From Escherichia phage PGN6866, in sequence record MT127620: 64,000 bases of DNA; one strand, given 5' to 3'. Under the pieces are notes generated by a model that did not search any database, was not told where the DNA came from, and was given only the letters and a program-made list of their open reading frames with translations. This document shows positions 4,466 to 53,853 of the stretch, piece after piece (the stretch's first letter is position 1; each line of letters begins with the position of its first letter). The position numbers and the translations under genes are program-made.

Positions 4466-4692
4466 GGCAAGTTTCCTTGCCTTGTATGTTTTACATCGTA
4501 CCCGATGAATTGAAGTATACATTAACCAATGATGGTTGCAATAGGGTAAAGCAAATTATTTTAAACTTTTTTATAGTGGGATAGATAAAAGAACGGGCGC
4601 GCGTGATACATCATAGGAAACGGCTTGTAAAGCAACAATAAGCGTCCTAAAACGCATCACAACGAGCTAAAAGGGAGTAAGGCATACAATCA

Positions 4693-7991: not shown

Positions 7992-8616
7992 TCCAATAAC
8001 CGCAGTGAATATGGAAGGTGTTTATGGAGGTAGTTTCCCTTCTGGTTCTCCTTTCCACACTAAAGCGATGGACCTTAACGATTACAATTCACAGCTATGT
8101 CGCTCTGGTTGCAGCTTACAGCATTTAGAAACTATGGGAAATGTTTCAGGCTTAGCTGTACAAGATTTATATAGTGGAAGTATTCTTAAACCAAATATTA
8201 CGGAGAACAAAAATATGTTAGATTTGATTCATACTACTCGTCCTAATTCTAAAACTAAAACACAACCATCTACTCTGGAAGTAGTTGAATATGAATCTAC
8301 TAAACACGATCACCTCCCTGACTATGCTCGTGCAATGATTGAGATGATTGAAGAAGCTGAATATGAAATGCTCCATGATTACATTACCTCCAAAGATGAA
8401 TGGCATCGTGATGTTCGAATCGAAGAGGATGGTACAGAAACAATTACGTGGATTCACAAGAGTGAGCTAGTAGACGACGCACTGCGAGACTACGAAAAAT
8501 TTTTGGTCGACGGCTCTATTCTTTTAGAGGAAGAGAAGGGTGCAGAACTTCCGTGGGAAGGTGAGACGATTGCTCTTGGTAAGATGTTTAACCTGTCCGT
8601 TGGTGATTGTAAGTAA
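7984..8616 (+). CDS. hypothetical protein
   Basis: ATG at 7984 with AGGGAGA upstream, ATGAATAA overlap with upstream stop; track start 7909 is an extension. Confidence 0.5.
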   Translation: MNNPITAVNMEGVYGGSFPSGSPFHTKAMDLNDYNSQLCRSGCSLQHLETMGNVSGLAVQDLYSGSILKPNITENKNMLDLIHTTRPNSKTKTQPSTLEVVEYESTKHDHLPDYARAMIEMIEEAEYEMLHDYITSKDEWHRDVRIEEDGTETITWIHKSELVDDALRDYEKFLVDGSILLEEEKGAELPWEGETIALGKMFNLSVGDCK

Positions 8617-8621
8617 TATTT

Positions 8622-8650
8622 GCCTCCATTGGGAGGCTTTTTGTGTTGTT
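8622..8650 (+). terminator. putative rho-independent terminator
   Basis: GCCTCC-ATTG-GGAGGC hairpin followed by TTTTTGTGTTGTT. Confidence 0.5.
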
Positions 8651-16099: not shown

Positions 16100-16105
16100 A
16101 ACTAG

Positions 16106-16135
16106 ACCCTGCCTTCGGGCGGGGTTTTTTCGTTT
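16106..16135 (+). terminator. rho-independent terminator after the capsid gene
   Basis: 8-bp stem ACCCTGCC / GGCGGGGT with UUCG loop followed by TTTTTTCGTTTT. Confidence 0.6.
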
Positions 16136-16200
16136 TAAGACCTATACAAGCAAGTGTGTAATGTATATTCTTTGTCTACATATAACAAGGAGGACAACCT

Positions 16201-19645: not shown

Positions 19646-21826
19646 ATGTCTAGAGAATTAATGCCCAAATCTGGTATAATGATGCCTCATGTGGTTGTAA
19701 CCAGAGATGCGGCTGTTGTTGGTGTTTCTACCGTAGATGGACAGGCAGGGGCTATTGACCTCACTGGAAAATATCTACAGAAAACCGACGCAGCTGCTAC
19801 ATACCAAACTAAAACAGAAGGTGCATCTAAAGATTTTGTGCTGGATTCAATTCAACCTATTATGTCTGGTGCTTTGTTCCGAGAAGACCCTTGGGTTGTT
19901 AACGATACCCCCTTCCGCTCTACTGGTGCTAATGGTGTAGAGTCTGTGGATATGATGAAAGTTACTACTGATAACTCAATTAAGATTGGTAGTTATGCCT
20001 CTTCAGTTCAAGGTGTAGAGATTCATTCTGCTGGTCGTCTTCAGGTTGTTGACCAGAATGACTCTGGAGTAGAAACTAAGTATCCTGTTTATTCTAAACG
20101 TTATCGTCCTGAGGTTGAGGATTTGCCTTTTGCTGCAATTGGTTCTTATGTTAAAGATTCCAAAGGTCGTACTGTTGGCGTAAGTCGTACTGGTATTAAC
20201 TCTGATATCAAACAGCTCACACAGAAAGTTACTTTCACTCAACCAGTAACTATTCCTGATGCAGTTGGTGATTATGATGCAGTCACTTTGAGACAACTTC
20301 GTAATAGTGGTGGCGGTTCTGGCGGTCCTACAATGAGTGGTATTTCTAACTTTGGTATTGGTGATTTCCACTTACGTGATAGTCGAGCTTTCATTCCAGC
20401 TTTCGAAGTGGTATCTGATGGTCAACTTTTAAACCGTGCCGATTACCCAGACCTTTGGGCTTACGCACAACTGTTGTCACCTATCGAAGATTCAGAATGG
20501 GTAAGTAACATCTACCAACGTGGTAAATACTCTAAAGGTAATGGCACAACTACTTTCCGTGTCCCTGACAGAAACGGTGTACAATCTGGTTCTATTCAAG
20601 GTCTTTTCGGGAGGGGTGATGCTGGTTCTTCTGGTAGCAATGGGGTTGTATCAGATTCTGGTGCACCAAATATCACATACGCATCTCCTCATACAATGGT
20701 AACTCTCGCCTCTGCTCCTGGGCAAGTGGCAACTAATGGGGCAATCCAATCTATCACTTCTACAGATGACGTTGCTCCTGTTGGCGCAGGAGGTAAATAT
20801 ATATCCACAAACTTTGATGCATCGCGTTCTAGCTCTATCTATGGTCGCTCTCCTTCTGAGATAGTTCCTCGTAACTTTATTGGTGTTTGGACTATCCGTG
20901 CACACGGTGGATTTACTGCTGCTAATACTTCTTGGTCTGTTATTAATAGTGACTCGACAGAACCTGCATCCGGAACGGTTGTCAGGGGTGGTAGTGTCAA
21001 ATCTGAATATAAGATTGGTACAAGCCTAAGGTATCAAGCATATCTTCAGGCATATGGGAGAATTGGTGGGTTGGCGTCTGAACAAGGCGCTGTGGTATCC
21101 AATGGGGTGCAAGAATGGTCATTCAACCAAGCTGGTACTTTGTACTTCCCAAGCGCAGAGATTCAGATTGGCACACTACGGCCTGATGGCGCATTACATA
21201 TTAACGCATACGTCAGACCGAATGATGTCGTTGTACAACCATTAAACTCTGTTGGGGTCGCAGCTTCAGAAAGAAACGCCATCAGGATGATAAACTACGC
21301 GAATGTGCCGGAAGGAGGTTATATAAACTCCGTTGGCGGCGACTGGTATGACGGGAATTGGTTACTTGGCGGAGTCAGAAGTGGCACAACAGCATTAGAC
21401 CGCGTGCAGATTAACGTCTCTGATGGGCTTGGTAGTGGTGCCTCATACTTATTTGGATCTGATGGTATAGCAAGATGCCAAGAATGGAGAAGTACATCTG
21501 ATGAACGAGTTAAAAGCAATATTGAGCGCATCAGTGACCCACTCTCTAAGATGAAGAATATCAAGGGGGTTTCATGGGTTCTGGAAACCAATGGCTCAAC
21601 AGGGTATGGATTCATCGCACAGGACGTAGAGAAGGATTTTCCTGAAGCTGTATCAGAAACAAAGGCTTCACCAGTCACTCTGCGAGATGGGTCTGTGTTG
21701 GATAACGTAAAGTCGGTTAACACCACGGGCGTTGCTGCTGCGTTGCACCATGAAGCTATTCTTGAACTCATGAAGCAGATTGAAGAGCTTAAGAAAGAGG
21801 TGTCAGAGCTTAAGTCTAGTAAGTAA
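19646..21826 (+). CDS. tail fibre/spike with C-terminal intramolecular chaperone (peptidase S74-like) domain
   Basis: 726 aa; C-terminus SDERVKSNIERISDPL...GFIAQDVEKDFPEAV...LELMKQIEELKKEVSELK. Confidence 0.7.
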   Translation: MSRELMPKSGIMMPHVVVTRDAAVVGVSTVDGQAGAIDLTGKYLQKTDAAATYQTKTEGASKDFVLDSIQPIMSGALFREDPWVVNDTPFRSTGANGVESVDMMKVTTDNSIKIGSYASSVQGVEIHSAGRLQVVDQNDSGVETKYPVYSKRYRPEVEDLPFAAIGSYVKDSKGRTVGVSRTGINSDIKQLTQKVTFTQPVTIPDAVGDYDAVTLRQLRNSGGGSGGPTMSGISNFGIGDFHLRDSRAFIPAFEVVSDGQLLNRADYPDLWAYAQLLSPIEDSEWVSNIYQRGKYSKGNGTTTFRVPDRNGVQSGSIQGLFGRGDAGSSGSNGVVSDSGAPNITYASPHTMVTLASAPGQVATNGAIQSITSTDDVAPVGAGGKYISTNFDASRSSSIYGRSPSEIVPRNFIGVWTIRAHGGFTAANTSWSVINSDSTEPASGTVVRGGSVKSEYKIGTSLRYQAYLQAYGRIGGLASEQGAVVSNGVQEWSFNQAGTLYFPSAEIQIGTLRPDGALHINAYVRPNDVVVQPLNSVGVAASERNAIRMINYANVPEGGYINSVGGDWYDGNWLLGGVRSGTTALDRVQINVSDGLGSGASYLFGSDGIARCQEWRSTSDERVKSNIERISDPLSKMKNIKGVSWVLETNGSTGYGFIAQDVEKDFPEAVSETKASPVTLRDGSVLDNVKSVNTTGVAAALHHEAILELMKQIEELKKEVSELKSSK

Positions 21827-21832
21827 TCTAGT

Positions 21833-21850
21833 AGCCCCTTCGGGGGCTTT
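21833..21850 (+). other. GC hairpin with UUCG loop
   Basis: AGCCCC-TTCG-GGGGCT, not followed by a T-run. Confidence 0.35.
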
Positions 21851-21920
21851 AGTAGTGAGTACCCTTAGTAAGTAATGAAACTAATATATCCCAAGAGGTT
21901 AATATATAGGAGACACTCAA

Positions 21921-22139
21921 ATGAAAATGATGAAACAAGCTGCATACGGTTTAATATGTTTAGGCGCAGGTGTTGTGGTGTCGACCGCAGTTCCTGTAGG
22001 CGCAGTTCATCCATTAGTAACTGTCCCTGCTCCAGTAGAGAAGCTTAGTTCTCAATGTAAGCAGAGAACAATTCAAAATAACTTAGTTGTTATTTGCCCT
22101 GATGCTGAATCTAACGCTCTGAGAAAGATACTACCTTAA
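21921..22139 (+). CDS. small membrane/secreted protein (holin or signal-anchored candidate)
   Basis: 72 aa, one N-terminal hydrophobic segment, directly upstream of lysozyme. Confidence 0.35.
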   Translation: MKMMKQAAYGLICLGAGVVVSTAVPVGAVHPLVTVPAPVEKLSSQCKQRTIQNNLVVICPDAESNALRKILP

Positions 22140-22168
22140 TTTAAAGGGACTACAAAAGGAGGTTAGAA

Positions 22169-22660
22169 ATGGATAACGTCGCATTGCCACCTGTACAACT
22201 AAACTTAAGCCCAGCGGGAATGGAATTCATCATGAAGCATGAGGGTATGAGAACCAAGGCTTATAAAGATTCCGCAGGTATCTGGACTATATGTGTAGGG
22301 GCTACGCGCGATATGAATGGTTATCCGGTTAGACAAGGATTAACGTATTCTATAGAGGATTGTCTAGCTCTGCTAGATAGAGACACACAAGACTCTGTTC
22401 GTGCTACTCAGAAGAACATAAAGGTTCCTTTACTAGTTCATGAGTTTGATGCACTCACTTCTTTCAACTTCAACGTTGGCAGTGGGGCTTTGAGCACATC
22501 TAAGTTAAGGAAGGTAATCAATGGAGATGTTAAGGGGGATGTTTATTCCGAATTTCTTCGTTGGGATAAAATAACGGTCAAGGGAGAGAAGCAGAGAAGT
22601 CAGGGTCTTCATAATAGAAGAGTTGCAGAAGCTAATCTTTACACCGAAGGTAAATATTAA
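22169..22660 (+). CDS. lysozyme (glycoside hydrolase family 24-like)
   Basis: 163 aa; MKHEGMRTKAYKDSAGIWTICVGAT and FNVGSGAL motifs. Confidence 0.8.
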   Translation: MDNVALPPVQLNLSPAGMEFIMKHEGMRTKAYKDSAGIWTICVGATRDMNGYPVRQGLTYSIEDCLALLDRDTQDSVRATQKNIKVPLLVHEFDALTSFNFNVGSGALSTSKLRKVINGDVKGDVYSEFLRWDKITVKGEKQRSQGLHNRRVAEANLYTEGKY

Positions 22661-22672
22661 TGGAGGTGCCTT

Positions 22673-23476
22673 TTGGCTATCGAAACTAATGCGGTAGTTA
22701 TTACCGACTTAAACCCGCTCTATCCTAGAGACAGGGATTACATCTACGAAGGGGCGGCTCAAATCCGCCTCATTAAACAAACGTTACAGAACACGTTCCC
22801 CAATGTTACAGAGCCAGTTGATATAGATTCTGACACATTTAAGATTATGTCAGAGAAGCTCAAGTTTACTGGTGATGCAATGGATGTTGGTGGTCTAATG
22901 ATTAAGAACGTTACTCCGGGAACTGGTGACAAGGATGTTGTTACTAAAGGCCAGATGGAAGCGTTCATGAAGAACTGGATGGAAAACAAGGTATTCCGTA
23001 TTGGTGCTTACTACATCACTGAAGAAGATATTAATCCCGGTGATTCCATCTCCTTAGGGTTTGGCTCTTGGGCTAAAGTGACTGGTGTCATTATGGGTAC
23101 TGGTGTAGTAAACCCTGATGGAACTGTTCCTAATGCTCAGAGGGTTGAGTTCCAAGCAGGTGGTACTGGTGGTCGTGTTTTCAATACCATTCGAACAGAG
23201 AACGTACCTTTGATGACAGTTAATGGCTCCAGCTTCTCTCTATCCAGTAACACTCACAGCCACAATATGGTATTTGGTCGTGGAGATGCTAGTGGTCATA
23301 ACAGCTCACCAAACTGGTATAGCCCGGGTGGTGGTTACAGCCAGAGAACTGATAATGACACACACACTCATACAATCTCTGGTAGTGTAAGTCTTGGTCG
23401 TGATGATATCTCTCGTCAACCTATTAACACTTTGCCACCATTCAGAGCAGCTCACATTTGGAGACGTATTAGCTAA
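22673..23476 (+). CDS. tail fibre-like protein
   Basis: 267 aa, TTG start after GGAGGTG; Gly/Ser/Thr-rich C-terminus. Confidence 0.4.
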   Translation: MAIETNAVVITDLNPLYPRDRDYIYEGAAQIRLIKQTLQNTFPNVTEPVDIDSDTFKIMSEKLKFTGDAMDVGGLMIKNVTPGTGDKDVVTKGQMEAFMKNWMENKVFRIGAYYITEEDINPGDSISLGFGSWAKVTGVIMGTGVVNPDGTVPNAQRVEFQAGGTGGRVFNTIRTENVPLMTVNGSSFSLSSNTHSHNMVFGRGDASGHNSSPNWYSPGGGYSQRTDNDTHTHTISGSVSLGRDDISRQPINTLPPFRAAHIWRRIS

Positions 23477-23485
23477 GGAGGAATT

Positions 23486-26400
23486 ATGGCGCTGTATCCA
23501 ATAAAGTCACTAGGTGCTGTAGGCGTTATCGCTGACCAGGCTCCGACAGACTTAGCTCCTAATGCTTTCACTAATGCTATAAATGCTCGATTTGTTGAGC
23601 AGAGAGTATTTAAGACGGGGGGCAATGCCCCTCTTTCTTATGTAGATGAAGATAAGGATTTAACCCCTCTGTCTTTCGTTTCTATGCCTTTCGATTATTA
23701 TAGCGCAGGTAATAGCTTTCTTGTTGTAGGTACTAATAAGAAGTTATATAAACTGACAGATGAAAGCTTGACTGATATTAGCCGTAAGGTTGCTACAGTC
23801 ACTAAGAAGGCTTCTGCCTCAATTAAGATTTATCCAGTTGTTTCTCAGATCGTTCCTAAAGAATCAACTATCTCAATGAACTTCAATCAGACCAAGAATC
23901 TAGAGGTTTCTCTTCTCCCTGCTGATGCTAACAATACTGATCTTATTTGGGAGGTTAGTAACTCATCCTATGGAAGTATTACGGTAGACCCTAGTGACTC
24001 TAAACTTGCTACTCTAACATCTTTTGAGAAAGAGGGTAATCTTGTAGTAACTATCTCTACTGCCAATGAGTCCGTAGTGGCTCAGATTGCTGTTAATATC
24101 ATCGATGGTGATTCAGGCATCTTCTTGAGTCAAGACACTGTTACAATTCGTAAAGGAGGGACTACTACCCTCACGGCTGTTACTGGCAAGACTCCTGTAA
24201 CTTGGTCCAGCAATAACGCTTCTATTGTATCTGTAACCCCTAACGCCAACTCTTTAACTGCTGTCATTACAGCGAATGGAGAAGGTAATGTAACAATCAC
24301 TGCTGACAACGGAACTAAGACTGCTTCTTGTGAGATTGTTTCTATCCCTCAGATTGATAGTATCTCTTTAAGCCAGTCAGATGTTACTGTGAGTAGAGGT
24401 TCTCAGTACATCTTAACTGCTACCCTTTCTCCTGCTAACGCCCCTAATCAAAATATTACTTGGACCTCTTCTAATCCAAATATTGCAACAGTATCAGGGA
24501 CTAGTACACAAGGGACGATCAACGCTCTACTTGCTGGTTTTACTGAGATTACAGCTACCACTGAAGAAGGTAACAGAGTTGCTGTCTGTACTGTACGTGT
24601 GGATTTAGCTGGAAGGACAATGAGAACAAGTGCTATGGCATTTGCCGCTCCTGTGTCAGAGTCGGTAGAAACTCAAGAGGAAGAAGTAGTAACTCCTCCT
24701 GAAAGTGAAGAGACGGTTTATTTTGCTGAGCCTACATCCGGTATAGATACGTCAGGGATGTATGAAGGTAACAACTTCTACGACTACTCTAACGTAAACG
24801 ATATTGAAGGTTTTGCAAGAGCTTCTTTACTAGCAACTCCTTTGTCATCCGTAACTTTAGATGTTGTCAGCGCCTCTCTCGATGTTGGTGAGGAAATAGT
24901 TATCACAGCTACAGCTTCTCCAGAAGGTGATTATTCTTATCAGTGGTCTGTTGATAAGACTGGTTATGTTTCTACAACTTCAGTTACTGGTAAATCTATT
25001 AAACTGGTTGCTCTTCGTAAAGGAGAGATTAATGTAACATGTACTGTCAGCCAAATGACTCAGAAGGATTACGATGCTTTTGATGACTACCCTTGGTATC
25101 ACGCTGTTATCTCTAACTGTGCAGTTGCTACAACTCACTATGAAACTCCTCAGGTAAAAGAATTCGAATCAGAATACTTTGTAGACCTTCCGGGATGGGG
25201 TGAGCAAACAGTTGTTGATAATGATGGAAACCCTTCAGTCAAGAAGTTTAACTGGAAATGTGAGAGAGTAAGATCTTTTAACAACCGTCTTTTTGCTCTG
25301 AATATGAGAGAGGCTAATGCTTCTGGTGTTACCACTAACTACCCGCTTCGTCTTCGTTGGTCTAACTTTGCCAATGAGAACAAGGCTCCTACACTGTGGG
25401 ACGACTTTGCCTATGATCGAGTTGTGTCTTCGGACTTAGCTTCTAACATCGTAGGGCAGACTCAGGCTCTAGAGAATGGATATGCTGGTTACATTGACCT
25501 AGCCGATTCTAATGGTAGCTTGATTGATATCCTACCTCTTAAAGACTACTTGTTCGTTTATACAGAGTTTGAAACGTATATTGGTTCTCCGACTAATAAC
25601 ACGTACCAACCTCTAATGTTCAAGAAGCTCTTTAACGACTCTGGTATCCTTGCTCCTGAGTGTGTGGTTGAAGTAGAAGGTAGCCACTTCGTAGTTACTC
25701 AGAATGATGTAATCTTACACAACGGTGCAACCAAGAAGTCAATTGCATCTAACCGTGTCAAGAACATGCTGATTAACGAGGTGTGTCTGGTTAATCCTCT
25801 AGCAACTCGAGTACACTTGCATCAGGATAAGAAAGAAGTTTGGGTTCTGTACGTAGGTCCGGGAGAACCAAAAGAAAGCTTCGCTTGTACTAAAGCTGCT
25901 GTATGGAATTATGAGTTTGATACTTGGTCTTTCCGTACTATCCCATATGCTCAGTGTATTGGTCTGGTTGATCCTCCTGTTTTAGAAAGAGGTCCAATCT
26001 GGTCTGACTTCCAAGAAATCACTTGGGATGACCCATCTATTAAAGAACTCGTTTGGAGAAAGGATGCAACAAACTTTAGACAGAGGGTTACGATAGTAGG
26101 TTCATTCTTGAAGGGATTCTATCAAGTGGATGTAGGTGCTCTTGATTATTTCTATGACAGGCTAAACGATGTTGTTATAGAGAAGCCTCTGGAAATGAGG
26201 TTGGAGAGGACTGGTATAGATTTTGATAATGTGACGAATGAGTGGAATCAGAAGCATATTAACAGGTTCCGACCTCAGACAACTGGCTCAGGTACTTACA
26301 TATTTGAAGCTGGTGGTAGTCAATTCTCAAATGAATATGGACACCCACACACATCTAAGACATATACGATCGGTGTTGACAGGCATGTCTCGGTGAGACT

Positions 26401-28560: not shown

Positions 28561-29343
28561 ATGGCAATTAGAATGGGTATCGAAGAACTAGACCCAATGG
28601 TACAGCAAGCTTCAAAGAAGTATGGGATTCCTGCTGCTTTGATTCATGCTGTAATCCAAAGGGAGTCTAGTGGTCGTCCTACAGTGGCTTCTGGAACTGG
28701 TCCTGTAGGTTTAATGCAGATCAGTAAAGGGTTGGCTAAAGATTACGGTTACAAACTAGAAGACAGACTTGACCCAGCAAAGAATATTGATATGGGTGCT
28801 CGTTATATTAGAGATAACTTAAAAGCTTTTAATGGTGATGTTAAGAAAGCAATGGTTGGTTATTCAGAAGGTATCGGCGGAGCTAAGCAAATGTTCGCTG
28901 GTAAAAAGGGATTTACACCTCAAGCTCTTGACTCCATGAACAATAAACACTTTCTTCCTTTCTATGGTGATGCAGCTTCTCAGATTGCTAACCCTGTTGG
29001 AGCTTTGCAAGCTGTTCAACCAGTCAATCAGTTTAGTTCTGACTTACTAGACAGAGAGAAAGCCGCACAAGCTCCAACTCAGGCAGAGATTGCTGCTTCT
29101 AAGACAGGTGCTTTAGGCGGAAATCCAGTAGAGTTTTACTCTGATGAAGTGCAGGAAGGTGAAAACCAGAAGCCTCAACAGAACTTTGGTAATGCAGTAT
29201 TAGGGGTAGCTGCTATGCTTGCTGGCAAACCTCCCACCTCTCAAACAGTTCAGAGGGCAAGTGCACCACATGCAGCAGGTTCTCAGTACAGTCCACAAAC
29301 ACAAGCAGTGCTCAGACGTTTAGCTAGCATTGGTGTAAAGTAA
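28561..29343 (+). CDS. lytic transglycosylase (SLT) domain virion protein
   Basis: 260 aa; IHAVIQRESSGRP...GLMQI SLT catalytic motif. Confidence 0.6.
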   Translation: MAIRMGIEELDPMVQQASKKYGIPAALIHAVIQRESSGRPTVASGTGPVGLMQISKGLAKDYGYKLEDRLDPAKNIDMGARYIRDNLKAFNGDVKKAMVGYSEGIGGAKQMFAGKKGFTPQALDSMNNKHFLPFYGDAASQIANPVGALQAVQPVNQFSSDLLDREKAAQAPTQAEIAASKTGALGGNPVEFYSDEVQEGENQKPQQNFGNAVLGVAAMLAGKPPTSQTVQRASAPHAAGSQYSPQTQAVLRRLASIGVK

Positions 29344-33065: not shown

Positions 33066-33132
33066 GACCTAAGTCCTGCCTTCTATAATGTATATAGGGG
33101 GTAGGACATTTTTATTTATAAAAGGAGACGTT

Positions 33133-40087: not shown

Positions 40088-41573
<1,486 letters not shown>

Positions 41574-41574
<1 letters not shown>

Positions 41575-41834
41575 TATTCTATTCCACGCTCTTTCAGAGC
41601 TTCTAACAATCCGTTGTGATTGGCAGCACATTCTGTGTACTGGTCCTGATACCACTCCAACGTAGTGGCTAGTGCTTTTCCTTGAGCACTTTCTAAAAGA
41701 GGCAGGTCAACCCTACATTCAGCTTTTAGGTTTGTTGGTAAGGGCATTGATTGCCTGCTGTTGTCGCTCATTGAACAAGCTGACATACTCATCACTAGCG
41801 CAGACATTATAAAAAACTGGTTTAGTTTTCTCAT
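41574..41834 (-). CDS. putative outer-membrane lipoprotein (o-spanin candidate)
   Basis: Start MRKLNQFFIMSALVMSMSAC with lipobox-like Cys; overlaps the upstream gene in another frame. Confidence 0.4.
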
Positions 41835-42069
41835 AATGCATCTCTTTATAAACGGTTTCCGTGTTCTTCTTCCAGTTAGATAAACCGGTAAGAACCCTCT
41901 GAGCAACTTCATCAGCTGCTCTACTTCTTTCAATCTCTAACTCTTGCTGGTGCTTCTCTTTGTCCAGATTACTGCTGTCTGTTTGATATTCGTTAAACTT
42001 CATACCACCAAAGAATACAAGAGCTGAGAAAACGATAAACCCTAAGTTGTCACTTAATGTGTTTTGCAT
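41719..42069 (-). CDS. putative i-spanin (N-terminal TM plus coiled coil)
   Basis: ATG at 42069 after GGAGA; TM segment LGFIVFSALVFFGG then charged helical region; track start 42093 would include a terminator hairpin. Confidence 0.45.
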   Translation of the reverse strand: MQNTLSDNLGFIVFSALVFFGGMKFNEYQTDSSNLDKEKHQQELEIERSRAADEVAQRVLTGLSNWKKNTETVYKEMHYEKTKPVFYNVCASDEYVSLFNERQQQAINALTNKPKS

Positions 42070-42081
42070 GTTGTCTCCAAC

Positions 42082-42107
42082 GAAAAAAGCCACCCGGAGG
42101 TGGCTAA
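42082..42107 (-). terminator. rho-independent terminator (minus strand) after the SSB-like gene
   Basis: GCCACC-CGGA-GGTGGC hairpin with TTTTTT on minus strand. Confidence 0.5.
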
Positions 42108-42126
42108 GCTATAACAAGGAGAGTTA

Positions 42127-42873
42127 TTAGAATGGGCTATCGTTGTCGTCTTCGTAAGTAGAAGCAGGCTCTTTATCAATCGTAGGGATTGAAGGGGTAG
42201 CTTCTTTCTGCTCTGTTTCAGAAGCACGAGTAATTTCACGACCAGCCAGAGGCATGTTCTTAGCGTCATTAGCTTGAGTAAGCAGGTTGCGCTGGAACGG
42301 GAACATCAGTTGATAGGATGCTACGTTCTCATCGGTTTCAGCATACGGTTCGAAGAATACCAGAGGACTACGAGCTTCACCAACTGCTGCACGATATTTG
42401 GTTGGGATTGGAGAAATAGTCTTGATGGAGTTTTTAACTTCACCAGCTTTGTTAGTGTAAGAGTTAACCAGAATGTTAACAGGCTGACCTAACAGAACAT
42501 CCTTGAACCAAGACAGATCACCTTTCAGTGCTTGAATACTTGGGTCAATCATCTTGCAAAGATCAAGAATACCAGAGTTCTTAGCTCGTGGGTTTACATC
42601 ATAGCTCTTGAACTGGCAAGCCGGACGTGGTTCTAATGCCTTACCATCGGAATCTTTACCAGTAGCATCAACACCAATCAGCTCGAAAGCTAAATCCATA
42701 CGGAAAGCCGGATTCTTAGGAGTCACTGCTTTGGTCTTCGGGTCAACCCAAGGGTCACGATTGTGAACACCCAAACCTACTACACGAACGATACGTGCTT
42801 CGTACTCACCATCAGGGATGATGTCGTAGTTGGATTTACGAGAAGAAGTTGCGATAGTTGGAATCATAGACAT
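42127..42873 (-). CDS. single-stranded DNA-binding protein candidate (T7 gp2.5-like architecture)
   Basis: 248 aa ending in acidic tail YEDDNDSPF with terminal Phe; lies in the replication module. Confidence 0.5.
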   Translation of the reverse strand: MSMIPTIATSSRKSNYDIIPDGEYEARIVRVVGLGVHNRDPWVDPKTKAVTPKNPAFRMDLAFELIGVDATGKDSDGKALEPRPACQFKSYDVNPRAKNSGILDLCKMIDPSIQALKGDLSWFKDVLLGQPVNILVNSYTNKAGEVKNSIKTISPIPTKYRAAVGEARSPLVFFEPYAETDENVASYQLMFPFQRNLLTQANDAKNMPLAGREITRASETEQKEATPSIPTIDKEPASTYEDDNDSPF

Positions 42874-43289
42874 ATTTTAATTTCCTTATTTAATTTGAAA
42901 GATTGTTGCTCTCTTTGAGCGGTTATGTATAGTATACATTACGCTTATACCGATAAGAGTACTATATAATATAAGTATCTTTGGTAGTAGATATAACACA
43001 CTAGTAATGTATATATTGTATAGCTGATAAAGTTATTGCAGGCTTGTATATTGGGCAATTCACAGAATCCCTTGCAAGTACCGAAGGGCAGGAGCCACCT
43101 GCGAGATAAAAATAGAGAATTAAGGAATCCTTGATTTAGGTTGTAGGGACTCCTAGGGACTTTGATTCTCTATTTAAAAGAATATTAATTACTTATTACC
43201 TAAATAATTAACTAACTTACTTAAACCAAATTCAATAAGAATAGATAAAAAGATTATTCCTAAGAAAGCTAAAAAGTAAAGGATATAAG

Positions 43290-53673: not shown

Positions 53674-53853
53674 TTATGCAGTCAGGAGGTGAAGCAGGAA
53701 TGGGATAACAACAGCTACGATAACCATGATGGTTGATGCTGTTTGAATCTCACCTTTCTTATCAGGAGTTTCTTCAATAAGCTTACCAGAAGCCCAATAA
53801 ATACCACCACCAATAAAGATAGCCCAAATACCCCATACGATTGCTGATAACAT
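53674..53853 (-). CDS. small two-TM membrane protein (59 aa)
   Basis: Hand-translated MLSAIVWGIWAIFIGGGIYW...IMVIVAVVIPFLLHLLTA; AAGGA upstream; replaces track ORF 53715..53987. Confidence 0.4.
   Translation of the reverse strand: MLSAIVWGIWAIFIGGGIYWASGKLIEETPDKKGEIQTASTIMVIVAVVIPFLLHLLTA

What the first reader, a model, noticed from the sequence alone, without database searches (positions are those of the whole stretch)
21921..22660. Lysozyme embedded in the tail-fibre region, with candidate spanins 20 kb away on the other strand
The GH24-type lysozyme at 22169..22660 and a small membrane protein just upstream sit between fibre genes. The only spanin-like pair (TM plus coiled-coil protein with an overlapping lipoprotein in another frame, 41574..42069) is in the replication module on the minus strand. 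Either the lysis functions are dispersed or this lysozyme is virion-associated rather than the endolysin.
Basis: inference. Interest (0 to 1): 0.4.

Follow-up and report, generated by a model that had tools for sequence, protein, structure and literature searches.

The report
Known split lysis genes of Kuravirus
This is the ordinary, already annotated lysis gene set of a phiEco32-like (Kuravirus) coliphage: a small membrane protein and a lysozyme sit inside the late tail-gene operon, and the two outer-membrane-breaking spanin genes sit 20 kb away in the middle-gene operon.

Summary
The window is a Kuravirus (phiEco32-like podophage), 96-99% identical to phiEco32, SU10, MN05 and ShigP1.

- 21921-22139 is the 72-aa one-TMD "holin" (phi32_16).
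- 22169-22660 is a soluble GH24 endolysin (phi32_17).
- They lie between the distal long-tail-fibre gene and the short-tail-fibre and nozzle genes.
- 41719-42069(-) and 41574-41834(-) are an overlapped i-spanin/o-spanin pair (phi32_39/38).

SU10 proteomics found every flanking tail protein but neither the holin nor the lysozyme. The SU10 cryo-EM virion has no lysozyme. A separate SLT transglycosylase ejection protein (28561-29343) does the entry-side wall cutting. No canonical cassette exists elsewhere in complete relatives.

All of this is already in the literature and in GenBank: Kongari 2018 lists the phiEco32 spanins, the phage Paul record annotates all four genes, and the Privateer and YF01 papers note the placement.

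The holin call is untested. It rests on position, topology and strict synteny. A conserved 19-nt element upstream of it is unexplained.

Interest is low.

The parts
16159..16167 (+). TAATGTATA, exact match to the phage sigma (gp36) promoter consensus, at the position of the published phiEco32 P13 late promoter. It is the likely start of the transcript carrying the fibre, holin, endolysin and tail genes.
   Evidence: Exact match found. The consensus and the list of promoter-proximal genes (6, 13, 26, 40, 58, 68) come from PMC8948821 and PMC4331800. A terminator-like hairpin lies just upstream at 16104-16127. Promoter function in this phage is inferred by homology.
19646..21826 (+). Distal long-tail-fibre gene (phi32_15 / SU10 gp13), the upstream neighbour of the lysis pair.
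   Evidence: PHROG 6921 tail fibre at E 0 and Peptidase_S74 at E 2e-12. SU10 cryo-EM assignment.
21833..21848 (+). Conserved GC hairpin (AGCCCC-TTCG-GGGGCT) followed by only TTTAG. Possibly a weak terminator or an RNA 3'-end or stability element between the fibre and lysis genes.
   Evidence: Sequence read. Conserved in 9 relatives, with a longer compensated stem in L008.
21872..21890 (+). Invariant 19-nt block GTAATGAAACTAATATATC about 30 nt upstream of the holin start. Its function is unexplained; a lysis-gene promoter or regulatory site is one candidate.
   Evidence: Invariant in 9 relatives (one ambiguous position) while the neighbouring sequence and the holin protein vary. Unique in the window. 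The core is also present in the remoter contigs L052 and L058.
21921..22139 (+). 72-aa one-TMD protein (phi32_16), the putative class III-topology holin.
   Evidence: The family is confined to Kuravirus-like phages and always sits immediately upstream of the lysozyme. Conservation pattern. No functional test was found in the literature searched.
22169..22660 (+). 163-aa soluble GH24 (T4/P22-type) endolysin (phi32_17).
   Evidence: PF00959 at E 3.7e-32. PHROG 7 endolysin. Best PDB matches are endolysins 8APP, 7M5I, 6ET6, 3HDE and 2ANV. No N-terminal hydrophobic segment (Kyte-Doolittle 19-residue maximum 0.95).
22673..23476 (+). Short-tail-fibre gene (phi32_18 / SU10 gp16), the downstream neighbour.
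   Evidence: Gp10_C at E 6.6e-9 and PHROG 6465. SU10 structure.
28561..29343 (+). SLT transglycosylase ejection protein (phi32_22 / SU10 gp20). This is the phage's actual virion-borne peptidoglycan hydrolase.
   Evidence: PF01464 at E 1.1e-23 and PHROG 12507. Detected in SU10 particles at 39.6% coverage. Role stated in PMC9509320.
41574..41834 (-). o-spanin gene (86-aa precursor with lipobox MSA|C, 67-aa mature lipoprotein). RefSeq phi32_38 is a 5'-truncated call of it.
   Evidence: The 98.8%-identical Paul protein is annotated o-spanin with a LipoP SpII site at 19|20. The phiEco32 o-spanin family is listed in Kongari 2018.
41719..42069 (-). i-spanin gene (116 aa; N-terminal TMD, all-helical periplasmic part, one Cys).
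   Evidence: PHROG 1152 at E 2.8e-37. Homologous to Felixounavirus i-spanins in 434 phage records. AlphaFold2 single-sequence model is all helix at low confidence. Listed in Kongari 2018.
42083..42105 (-). Intrinsic-terminator-like hairpin (AGCCACC-TCCG-GGTGGCT plus T6), 13 nt upstream of the i-spanin start.
   Evidence: Sequence read. Conserved in 5 relatives. Annotated 'terminator' in phage Paul.
42933..42941 (-). TAATGTATA, exact gp36-type promoter element at the position of the published phiEco32 P40 middle promoter, upstream of the gene 40 homologue (42127-42873) and hence of the spanins.

Best explanation
The window comes from a phiEco32-like (Kuravirus) phage whose four lysis genes lie in two transcription units.

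The 72-aa membrane protein and the GH24 muramidase are a two-gene cassette. It sits in the late operon between the long- and short-tail-fibre genes, so both proteins are made together with virion parts. The muramidase has no export signal and accumulates in the cytoplasm. The small membrane protein (N-in, one TMD, small periplasmic Cys-containing domain) most likely acts as the holin that releases it at the programmed time.

The i-spanin and o-spanin are made earlier, from the middle operon. That operon is driven by the same phage sigma factor (promoter P40), and the spanin genes are probably reached by read-through of a terminator. The spanins wait as a periplasm-spanning complex and disrupt the outer membrane once the wall is degraded.

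The lysozyme is therefore the endolysin, not a virion enzyme. Entry-side wall cutting is done by the SLT ejection protein.

Shown here: gene identities, homologies, synteny, signal motifs and promoter-motif positions. Inferred: holin activity, transcript structure and timing.
For: Identity
- 96-99% nucleotide identity to phiEco32, SU10, MN05 and ShigP1, which annotate holin, endolysin and Rz-like spanin or o-spanin at these places.

Endolysin
- PF00959 at E 3.7e-32, with the E-x8-D-x5-T pattern.
- PDB relatives are all endolysins.
- The closest non-Kuravirus homologues (44% identity) sit in canonical cassettes of endolysin, 2-TMD holin, i-spanin and o-spanin.

Not in the virion
- SU10 mass spectrometry lacks CDS 14 and 15 while detecting all neighbouring tail proteins and even replication proteins.
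- The cryo-EM paper has no lysozyme, and gp20 SLT degrades the wall.

Holin
- The small gene is coupled to the lysozyme gene by an 18-33 nt gap in every relative examined, down to profile-only homologues P0024 and P0025.
- It has one TMD.
- The CPT annotation in phage Paul reads 'holin class III'.

Spanins
- PHROG 1152 at E 2.8e-37.
- The lipobox, all Cys, the 116-nt +1-frame overlap and purifying selection in the o-spanin frame are conserved.
- LipoP SpII call in phage Paul.
- Both phiEco32 spanins are in the Kongari 2018 families.

Transcription
- Exact TAATGTATA at the P13 and P40 positions.
Against: - No experiment on the Kuravirus holin, endolysin or spanins was found in the searchable literature. 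The two primary phiEco32 papers (proteomics 2008, transcription 2012) were not held.
- The 72-aa protein matches no Pfam holin family.
- Its most conserved part is the periplasmic C-terminus rather than the TMD.
- An alanine three residues after P25 is conserved, preceded by V or T two positions earlier (PVxA in close relatives, SVGA and ITVA in the remotest). This could be a signal-peptidase site.
- Another small two-TMD protein exists at 53674-53853(-).
- A strong terminator-like hairpin lies directly upstream of the i-spanin gene, so how much spanin mRNA is made is unknown.
- The window lacks about 13.5 kb of the genome. That part was checked only in relatives.
Confidence: 0.82

Rival explanations
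1. The lysozyme is a virion-associated enzyme used at entry to cut peptidoglycan. That would explain why its gene lies among tail-fibre genes. The true endolysin would then be elsewhere.
For: Its position is between fibre genes in the late operon. Relatives carry another wall-hydrolase-like gene (Hydrolase_2) in the early region that could in principle be a second lysin.
Against: - Not detected in SU10 particle preparations in which all flanking tail proteins had 40-75% coverage.
- Not mentioned in the SU10 cryo-EM paper, which gives the entry role to the SLT protein gp20. Its homologue is present here.
- It is a 163-aa single domain with no attachment domain.
- Its homologues are endolysins in canonical cassettes.
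- It is always paired with a small membrane protein.
Confidence: 0.04
2. The 72-aa protein is not the hole-forming holin. It is a secreted or signal-anchor-release periplasmic peptide: a 28-residue signal cleaved after PVxA, leaving a roughly 44-aa disulfide-stapled hairpin. It would regulate lysis (antiholin-like or endolysin- or spanin-interacting). The real holin would be another small membrane protein, for example the two-TMD 59-aa product of 53674-53853(-).
For: - PVxA is invariant just after the hydrophobic stretch in the 16 aligned members. The alanine, with V or T two positions before it, persists in the remote members (SVGA in P0024, ITVA in P0025), which still satisfies the -3/-1 rule.
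- The hydrophobic segment is rich in Gly, Ala and Ser.
- The C-terminal 35 residues are nearly invariant under strong purifying selection (12-16 synonymous versus 2-5 non-synonymous codon changes), whereas the TMD is free to vary.
- Two invariant Cys flank a predicted beta-hairpin in a low-confidence AlphaFold2 model.
- No Pfam holin match.
- Other TMD proteins exist in the window.
Against: - Y9, G10, C13 and G17 inside the hydrophobic segment are invariant. Conservation there has a helix-like periodicity (peak near 90 degrees, permutation p 0.06), which is unusual for a mere signal peptide.
- The uncharged stretch is long for a cleaved signal.
- The soluble endolysin needs a holin, and the strict adjacency over deep divergence is the classic holin-endolysin signature.
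- The alternative candidate at 53674-53853 has unknown function, lies in the middle-gene region and lacks a charged C-terminal tail.
Confidence: 0.13
3. The spanin-like pair is a chance overlap of ORFs, or a relic, and outer-membrane disruption is done another way.
For: RefSeq phiEco32 annotates the o-spanin only as a truncated 57-aa hypothetical protein. A terminator-like hairpin sits immediately upstream.
Against: - Purifying selection is specific to the o-spanin frame (20:9 versus 4:28 and 1:33), and divergence is reduced about 3-fold in the dual-coding overlap.
- The lipobox and all Cys are invariant across 75-93%-identical relatives.
- The i-spanin is homologous to annotated i-spanins in 434 phage genomes.
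- Listed in Kongari 2018.
- LipoP call in phage Paul.
Confidence: 0.02

Closest known systems
phiEco32 gp16/gp17 (holin, endolysin) and gp39/gp38 (i-spanin, o-spanin); equivalents in SU10 (CDS 14/15), Paul (CPT_Paul_014/015/035/036) and YF01 (gp12/gp13)
   Same: Same genes in the same places. The holin is 100% identical to phiEco32, the lysozyme 98.8%, the i-spanin 99.1% and the o-spanin 100%. The flanking genes, promoter motifs and terminator are the same.
   Different: Nothing of substance: a few synonymous or conservative substitutions. The upstream fibre gene 19646-21826 has a different 3' end from phiEco32 (upstream sequences).
Phage T7 lysis genes (3.5 amidase; 17.5 holin directly after tail-fibre gene 17; 18.5/18.7 spanins). 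Established knowledge, not tested here.
   Same: A virulent podophage with lysis genes scattered among transcription classes. A small one-TMD holin gene lies immediately downstream of a tail-fibre gene, and the spanin pair is elsewhere.
   Different: In T7 the endolysin (an amidase that also regulates the RNA polymerase) is not next to the holin, and the spanins are embedded rather than overlapped and lie in the late region. Here the holin and a GH24 muramidase are adjacent, and the spanins are in the middle region on the opposite strand. No sequence homology was tested.
Phage T4 (e, t, pseT.3/pseT.2) dispersed lysis genes and the class III holin T
   Same: The spanin genes are not near the holin and endolysin (Kongari 2018, Fig. 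8 legend). The holin has one TMD with the N-terminus in and a periplasmic C-terminal domain. The endolysin is GH24.
   Different: T4 T is 218 aa with a large periplasmic domain and has no detectable similarity to this 72-aa protein. The T4 spanins are separated, not overlapped. In T4, t and e are themselves unlinked.
Lambda S-R-Rz/Rz1 canonical cassette
   Same: The same four functions are expected. The o-spanin is in the +1 frame relative to the i-spanin. The endolysin is soluble and holin-dependent.
   Different: Lambda has one contiguous late cassette, a three-TMD holin with a dual start, a transglycosylase rather than a hydrolase, and Rz1 fully embedded. Here the cassette is split, the holin candidate has one TMD and no conserved dual start, and the spanins have the overlapped architecture.
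Felixounavirus (Felix O1-like) i-spanins, the JH2 family of Kongari 2018
   Same: The i-spanin shares about 33% identity over about 90% of its length and belongs to the same listed family. In those phages the o-spanin gene also overlaps.
   Different: The o-spanin of phiEco32-like phages is placed in a separate small family (NJ01, ECBP2, KBNP1711, PhiEco32). The genomic context differs.

Membership tests
GH24 / T4-type phage lysozyme (Pfam PF00959) | Profile match above the curated cut-off | tested here: met
   111.7 bits against a cut-off of 22.3, E 3.7e-32, covering residues 23-154.
GH24 / T4-type phage lysozyme (Pfam PF00959) | Catalytic Glu-8aa-Asp/Cys-5aa-Thr triad | tested here: met
   E25, D34 and T40 in HEGMRTKAYKDSAGIWT. 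The motif aligns with endolysins 8APP and 7M5I. It is invariant in 9 relatives.
SAR (signal-anchor-release) endolysin, as the MN05 GenBank record labels it | N-terminal weakly hydrophobic Gly/Ala-rich TMD preceding the catalytic Glu | tested here: not met
   The best 19-residue Kyte-Doolittle mean is 0.95. The N-terminus MDNVALPPVQLNLSPAGMEFIMKHE contains D, E, K and 3 Pro, with only 24 residues before the catalytic Glu.
Virion-associated peptidoglycan hydrolase | Presence of the protein in purified particles | not testable with these tools
   Published data for the 97%-similar SU10: CDS 15 is absent from the mass-spectrometry list while neighbouring tail proteins are present, and the cryo-EM paper does not mention it.
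Virion-associated peptidoglycan hydrolase | Lytic domain fused to, or docked by, a structural (tail, needle or ejection) domain | tested here: not met
   The protein is a 163-aa single PF00959 domain. By contrast, the SLT protein at 28561-29343 matches the PHROGs 'internal virion protein with endolysin domain' and 'lytic tail protein'.
Holin (functional class) | Small protein with at least one TMD, encoded next to the endolysin gene | tested here: met
   72 aa with a TMD at about residues 7-29. A 29-nt gap separates it from the lysozyme gene. Adjacency is conserved in all relatives, including the remote P0023, P0024 and P0025.
Holin (functional class) | Membership of a characterised holin sequence family | tested here: not met
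   No Pfam family at E below 0.07. The only match is PHROG 11161, which is made of the same Kuravirus proteins. A profile search of 1.84 billion proteins finds only 2 further homologues in the same synteny.
Holin (functional class) | Timed lethal hole formation that releases the endolysin | not testable with these tools
   No experimental paper was found.
Holin (functional class) | Dual-start (holin/antiholin) motif. Common, but not obligatory. | tested here: not met
   MKMMK in this phage, but Met3 and Met4 are replaced by I, L or T in relatives.
Two-component spanin: i-spanin | N-terminal TMD with a periplasmic, largely helical domain | tested here: met
   Hydrophobic segment NLGFIVFSALVFFGGM. 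TMpred TMD at residues 8-23 in the Paul annotation. AlphaFold2 single-sequence model gives helices 3-25, 36-76, 79-91 and 93-111 at low pLDDT 56. No coiled-coil predictor was run.
Two-component spanin: i-spanin | Homology to known i-spanins | tested here: met
   PHROG 1152 at E 2.8e-37. tblastn matches to annotated i-spanins of Felixounaviruses and others. Member of the JH2 family in Kongari 2018.
Two-component spanin: o-spanin | Signal peptidase II signal with a lipobox Cys, no Asp at +2, short mature protein | tested here: met
   MRKLNQFFIMSALVMSMSA|CS, mature length 67 aa. The lipobox is conserved as [MT][ST]SAC in 6 phages. LipoP SpII score of 18.03 at 19|20 for the Paul orthologue. No lipoprotein predictor was run here.
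Two-component spanin: o-spanin | Gene embedded in, overlapping, or directly following the i-spanin gene | tested here: met
   116-nt overlap in the +1 frame, conserved in 6 phages. Frame-specific purifying selection.
Two-component spanin | Periplasmic Cys available for intermolecular disulfides | tested here: met
   The i-spanin has one Cys. The mature o-spanin has two besides the lipid-modified Cys. All are invariant.
Two-component spanin | Required for outer-membrane disruption; the lipobox Cys is essential | not testable with these tools
   Needs genetics.

The most novel reading that the evidence does not exclude
The 72-aa 'holin' may be a new kind of small lysis protein rather than a canonical holin. 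It would have a Gly/Ala-rich signal or anchor, cleavable or releasable at the conserved alanine after the hydrophobic stretch (PVxA in close relatives). It would carry an almost invariant disulfide-stapled periplasmic hairpin that binds a conserved partner such as the endolysin, the spanins or a host envelope protein. Its synthesis might be governed by the invariant 19-nt element at 21872-21890. If so, the true hole-former of Kuraviruses would still be unidentified.
Probability: 0.13. Interest if true: 0.5.

Novelty: already known. Interest (0 to 1): 0.1.

Why it matters
It matters little beyond correct annotation. The window carries the standard Kuravirus lysis set, and the split layout has precedents in T7 and T4.

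Practical points:
- RefSeq phiEco32 and several other records truncate or miss the o-spanin gene.
- One record mislabels the lysozyme as a SAR endolysin.
- The holin assignment for this whole phage group, which is used in phage-therapy cocktails, has never been tested.

If the small protein proved not to be a holin, the lysis mechanism of this group would need revisiting.

Tried and rejected
- **Dual-start motif** (MKM, as in lambda S) in the 72-aa protein. Rejected because Met3 and Met4 are not conserved.
- **SAR-endolysin reading** (MN05 annotation). Rejected on hydropathy.
- **One-mismatch gp36 promoter match** TAATATATA at 21900-21908, just before the holin start. One-mismatch matches occur at chance frequency (19 found, 19.35 expected), and it overlaps the ribosome-binding site. 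Not accepted.
- **RNA structure sequestering the holin ribosome-binding site.** Folding of 21827-21960 is no better than shuffles (z-score 0.09), and the consensus fold finds only the hairpin.
- **Second occurrence of the 19-nt block** in the window. None.
- **Remote homologues of the 72-aa protein**, sought to transfer a function. The word-index search gave 23 clusters. The full profile search gave 2 further homologues in the same synteny, 2 repetitive long proteins (662 and 901 aa) that I did not retrieve and regard as spurious, and one N-terminal-only match, P0028, whose first 24 residues are near-identical to gp16 and which I did not follow up.
- **AlphaFold2 of the 72-aa protein** was too uncertain (pLDDT 53.5) to justify a fold search.
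- **Primary phiEco32 papers** (Savalia 2008, Pavlova 2012) could not be read, so the temporal class of genes 16/17 and 38/39 is taken from secondary sources.
- **UE-M6 holin/endolysin paper.** Checked and found unrelated.
- **Helical periodicity of conservation in the TMD.** Suggestive only (p 0.06).
Full report
**What the window is.** Megablast of 21800-23500 and of 41100-42900 against 50,697 phage records each hits the same 98 records. All are Escherichia or Shigella phages of the phiEco32 group (Gordonclarkvirinae: Kuravirus, Suseptimavirus), and the best matches are 96-99% identical: PH444, MN05, YF01, ShigP1, phiEco32 and SU10. Window coordinates equal phiEco32 coordinates plus 7072. The finding therefore concerns a well-sequenced, published phage family.

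**Check of the observation.**
- ORF 21921-22139(+) encodes 72 aa: MKMMKQAAYGLICLGAGVVVSTAVPVGAVHPLVTVPAPVEKLSSQCKQRTIQNNLVVICPDAESNALRKILP. It has one hydrophobic segment (Kyte-Doolittle 19-residue mean 2.15 at residues 11-29) and an AGGAGA ribosome-binding site 7 nt upstream.
- ORF 22169-22660(+) encodes 163 aa and matches Pfam Phage_lysozyme at E 3.7e-32. It carries the E25-x8-D34-x5-T40 triad and a strong AAGGAGG site.
- Upstream lies a 726-aa fibre with a Peptidase_S74 chaperone domain. Downstream lie a Gp10_C protein and a 1005-aa Big_2 protein. The SU10 cryo-EM work identifies their homologues as the distal long tail fibre, the short tail fibre and the nozzle.
- On the minus strand, 41719-42069 encodes a 116-aa protein with an N-terminal hydrophobic segment. 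It matches PHROG 1152 'Rz-like spanin' at E 2.8e-37.
- 41574-41834 encodes MRKLNQFFIMSALVMSMSA|CSMSDN..., a lipoprotein signal with Ser at +2 and a 67-aa mature part. It overlaps the first gene by 116 nt and is in the +1 frame.
- A six-frame lipobox scan of all 64 kb returns this gene and two other pattern matches. I did not examine those two further and judged them spurious from their positions only.

**Is the overlapping lipoprotein frame real?** I compared the window with phiEco32, Paul, LAMP, TH42 and IME267, whose o-spanins are 75-100% identical to it.
- The lipobox ([MT][ST]SAC), all three further Cys of the pair, the 116-nt overlap and the frame are conserved.
- In the 145 nt that only the o-spanin uses, codon changes against IME267 are 20 synonymous to 9 non-synonymous in the o-spanin frame. 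In the other two frames they are 4:28 and 1:33.
- Per-site divergence in the dual-coding overlap is 0.08-0.11, against 0.26-0.30 on either side.

This is the signature of two real overlapping genes. [quoted passage not shown] Kongari et al. 2018 list phiEco32 in an i-spanin family shared with Felix O1-like phages and in a small o-spanin family. tblastn finds the i-spanin family in 434 phage records. RefSeq phiEco32 calls the o-spanin a 57-aa hypothetical protein, which is a 5'-truncated gene call.

**Endolysin or virion enzyme?** Five lines of evidence favour the endolysin.
1. *SU10 proteomics.* The sample was PEG-concentrated phage, crude enough to contain DNA polymerase and the sigma factor. 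It detected CDS 12, 13, 16, 17 and 18 (the fibres, nozzle and needle that flank the cassette) at 40-75% coverage. It did not detect CDS 14 (holin) or CDS 15 (lysozyme).
2. *SU10 cryo-EM.* The paper accounts for the tail with portal, adaptor, two fibre sets, nozzle and needle. [quoted passage not shown] Its homologue is at 28561-29343 (PF01464 SLT, E 1.1e-23; PHROG matches to 'internal virion protein with endolysin domain').
3. *Domain structure.* The lysozyme is a bare 163-aa catalytic domain. Its nearest solved relatives are endolysins: 8APP, 7M5I, 6ET6, R21 (3HDE) and P22 (2ANV).
4. *Homologue context.* Its nearest non-Kuravirus homologues (44% identity, IMG/VR contigs L012 and L015) sit in textbook cassettes of endolysin, 2-TMD holin, i-spanin and o-spanin.
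5. *Pairing.* It is always paired with the small membrane protein (see the section on the 72-aa protein).

The 'SAR-endolysin' label in the MN05 GenBank record is not supported. The N-terminus has no hydrophobic segment (maximum 0.95) and contains charged residues and prolines.

**Is there a canonical cassette elsewhere?** The complete, annotated genome of ShigP1 is collinear with the window. It shows only the following wall- or lysis-related genes:
- the holin and endolysin;
- the two spanins;
- the SLT protein;
- a 129-aa 'cell wall hydrolase' (Pfam Hydrolase_2, E 1.7e-7) among early genes.

The last gene maps just outside the window's left end. It is also not peculiar to this isolate.
[quoted passage not shown] - The SU10 paper notes they are absent from the sister phages 7-11 and GAP52. 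I confirmed this for two Grimontviridae, SeKF_80 and A24, where two other small genes occupy the slot between the fibre and the short fibre.

**Transcription (partly inferred).** Published work defines the phage sigma factor (gp36) promoter as the single element tAATGTAtA, found upstream of phiEco32 genes 6, 13, 26, 40, 58 and 68.
- Exact copies lie at 16159-16167(+), the P13 position. No strong terminator-like site was found between there and the lysis genes.
- Another exact copy lies at 42933-42941(-), the P40 position, 60 nt upstream of the gene 40 homologue.
- Both lysis loci are therefore downstream of gp36-dependent promoters, one late and one middle.
- Between gene 40 and the i-spanin start lies a strong terminator-like hairpin (42083-42105, followed by T6). 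It is conserved in relatives and annotated as a terminator in Paul. Spanin mRNA would therefore arise by read-through.
- The next predicted promoter is a sigma-70 one inside gene 37, serving the sigma gene.
- The o-spanin stop and the macro-domain gene start share TAATG.

Making spanins early is harmless, because they act only after the wall is gone. That last point is established knowledge of spanin function, not something tested here.

**The 72-aa protein.** This is the least secure part.
- The family is tiny: 98 phage records by tblastn, 23 clusters among 5.8 billion proteins, and 2 more homologues in the same synteny by a full profile search of 1.84 billion representatives.
- In every case where context could be read, including the 57%-identical P0023 and the profile-only P0024 and P0025, the gene lies directly between a fibre gene and the lysozyme gene. 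That supports functional coupling and hence the holin call. The Paul annotators labelled it class III.
- It matches no Pfam holin family.
- The apparent dual start MKMMK is not conserved.
- Conservation is unusual. Within the hydrophobic part only Y9, G10, C13, G17, P25, V26 and A28 are fixed. The periplasmic C-terminus (KLS..CKQRTIQNNLVVICPD..S..LR..L) is nearly invariant.
- The C-terminus shows 12-16 synonymous versus 2-5 non-synonymous codon changes, while the N-terminal half shows 9-12 versus 7-8.
- PVxA followed by V, G or I would fit a signal-peptidase I site. The remote members keep the alanine with V or T two positions before it (SVGA, ITVA). On the other hand, fixed small residues spaced i, i+3, i+7 suggest a helix-packing face (periodicity peak near 90 degrees, permutation p 0.06).
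- A low-confidence AlphaFold2 model (pLDDT 53.5) shows an N-terminal helix, a disordered linker and a beta-hairpin bracketed by Cys46 and Cys59.

I keep 'holin' as the best reading at about 0.7 within the overall explanation. The secreted or released regulator is a 0.13 rival. One other small membrane protein with two TMDs, at 53674-53853(-), has unknown function.

**An unexplained detail.** The 94-nt spacer before the holin gene contains a conserved hairpin (21833-21848). It also contains a 19-nt block, GTAATGAAACTANTATATC (21872-21890), that is invariant in nine relatives whose holin proteins differ by up to 28%. The block is unique in the window, and its core recurs in remoter contigs. It is not part of a stable RNA fold and only partly resembles the gp36 promoter. 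It may be a dedicated regulatory site for the lysis genes. I could not test that.

**Comparison and verdict.** The genes are members of the phiEco32 gp16/17/38/39 families, at 99-100% identity to phiEco32. By way of analogy, and from established knowledge:
- T7 places its one-TMD holin gene 17.5 directly after tail-fibre gene 17 and scatters the other lysis genes.
- T4 has e, t and pseT.3/pseT.2 unlinked.

The finding is therefore a correct reading of a known arrangement. Novelty is 'already known' and interest is 0.1. The only open questions are the untested nature of the small membrane protein and the conserved upstream element.

Noticed in passing
window 21872-21890 (+): A 19-nt block, GTAATGAAACTAATATATC, about 30 nt upstream of the holin start. 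It is invariant in nine relatives although the surrounding spacer and the holin protein vary. It is unique in the window. Its core, GTAATGAA...ATATAT, also occurs in the remoter metagenomic contigs L052 and L058. It is possibly a promoter or regulatory site for the lysis genes.
   Followed up: partly
window 21833-21848 (+): A conserved GC hairpin with a TTCG loop directly after the fibre gene stop, followed by only three or four T. In L008 the stem is longer and compensated. It may be a weak terminator or an RNA-end element.
   Followed up: partly
window 42083-42105 (-): A strong intrinsic-terminator-like hairpin plus T6 lies 13 nt before the i-spanin start codon. It is conserved in relatives and annotated as a terminator in phage Paul. 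Spanin expression would need read-through from the P40 promoter at 42933-42941.
   Followed up: partly
window 41572-41576 (-): The o-spanin stop codon and the start codon of the macro-domain (Appr-1-p processing) gene (41134-41574) share TAATG, which suggests translational coupling. The longer GTG-initiated ORF listed mechanically (41134-41655) is probably not the real start.
   Followed up: no
window 53674-53853 (-): A 59-aa protein with two predicted TMDs (PHROG 9296, unknown function) in the middle-gene region. It is the only other small multi-TMD protein in the window, and so the only obvious alternative holin candidate.
   Followed up: partly
L003 (ShigP1) 8235-8624 (-); just outside the left end of the window: Relatives carry a 129-aa early-region gene with a Hydrolase_2 (SleB/CwlJ-like cell wall hydrolase) domain (E 1.7e-7; 32.2 bits against a cut-off of 27). 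tblastn finds no copy inside the window. Its role is unknown.
   Followed up: partly
relatives of window 41100-42900 (SU10, KM01, CHD5UKE1): In these phages the stretch matching the spanin / gene 40 region is split into two pieces by an inserted HNH homing endonuclease gene of roughly 420-550 nt. The insertion is absent from this window and from phiEco32.
   Followed up: no
window 22169-22660 (+) versus GenBank MT129655 (MN05): One public record labels the identical-family lysozyme 'SAR-endolysin', and another record (EcK-vB) labels the neighbouring short fibre 'N-acetylmuramoyl-L-alanine amidase'. The first label is contradicted by the sequence. The second I did not test directly; it disagrees with the Gp10_C/PHROG 6465 tail-protein matches for that gene and with its SU10 short-tail-fibre assignment.
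   Followed up: partly
window 43005-43013 (+) and 33086-33094 (+), 4516-4524 (-): Three further exact copies of the gp36 promoter element TAATGTATA. One is on the + strand, 64 nt from the P40 element and pointing the opposite way. Exact matches were not compared with chance, and their function was not examined.
   Followed up: no
P0028 (76 aa, from the profile search): A protein whose first 24 residues are near-identical to the 72-aa holin candidate (MKMMKQAVYGLVCLGAGVVVSTAV) but which then continues into a different hydrophobic sequence. It could be a frameshifted or fused variant of the gene. Its genomic context was not looked up.
   Followed up: no
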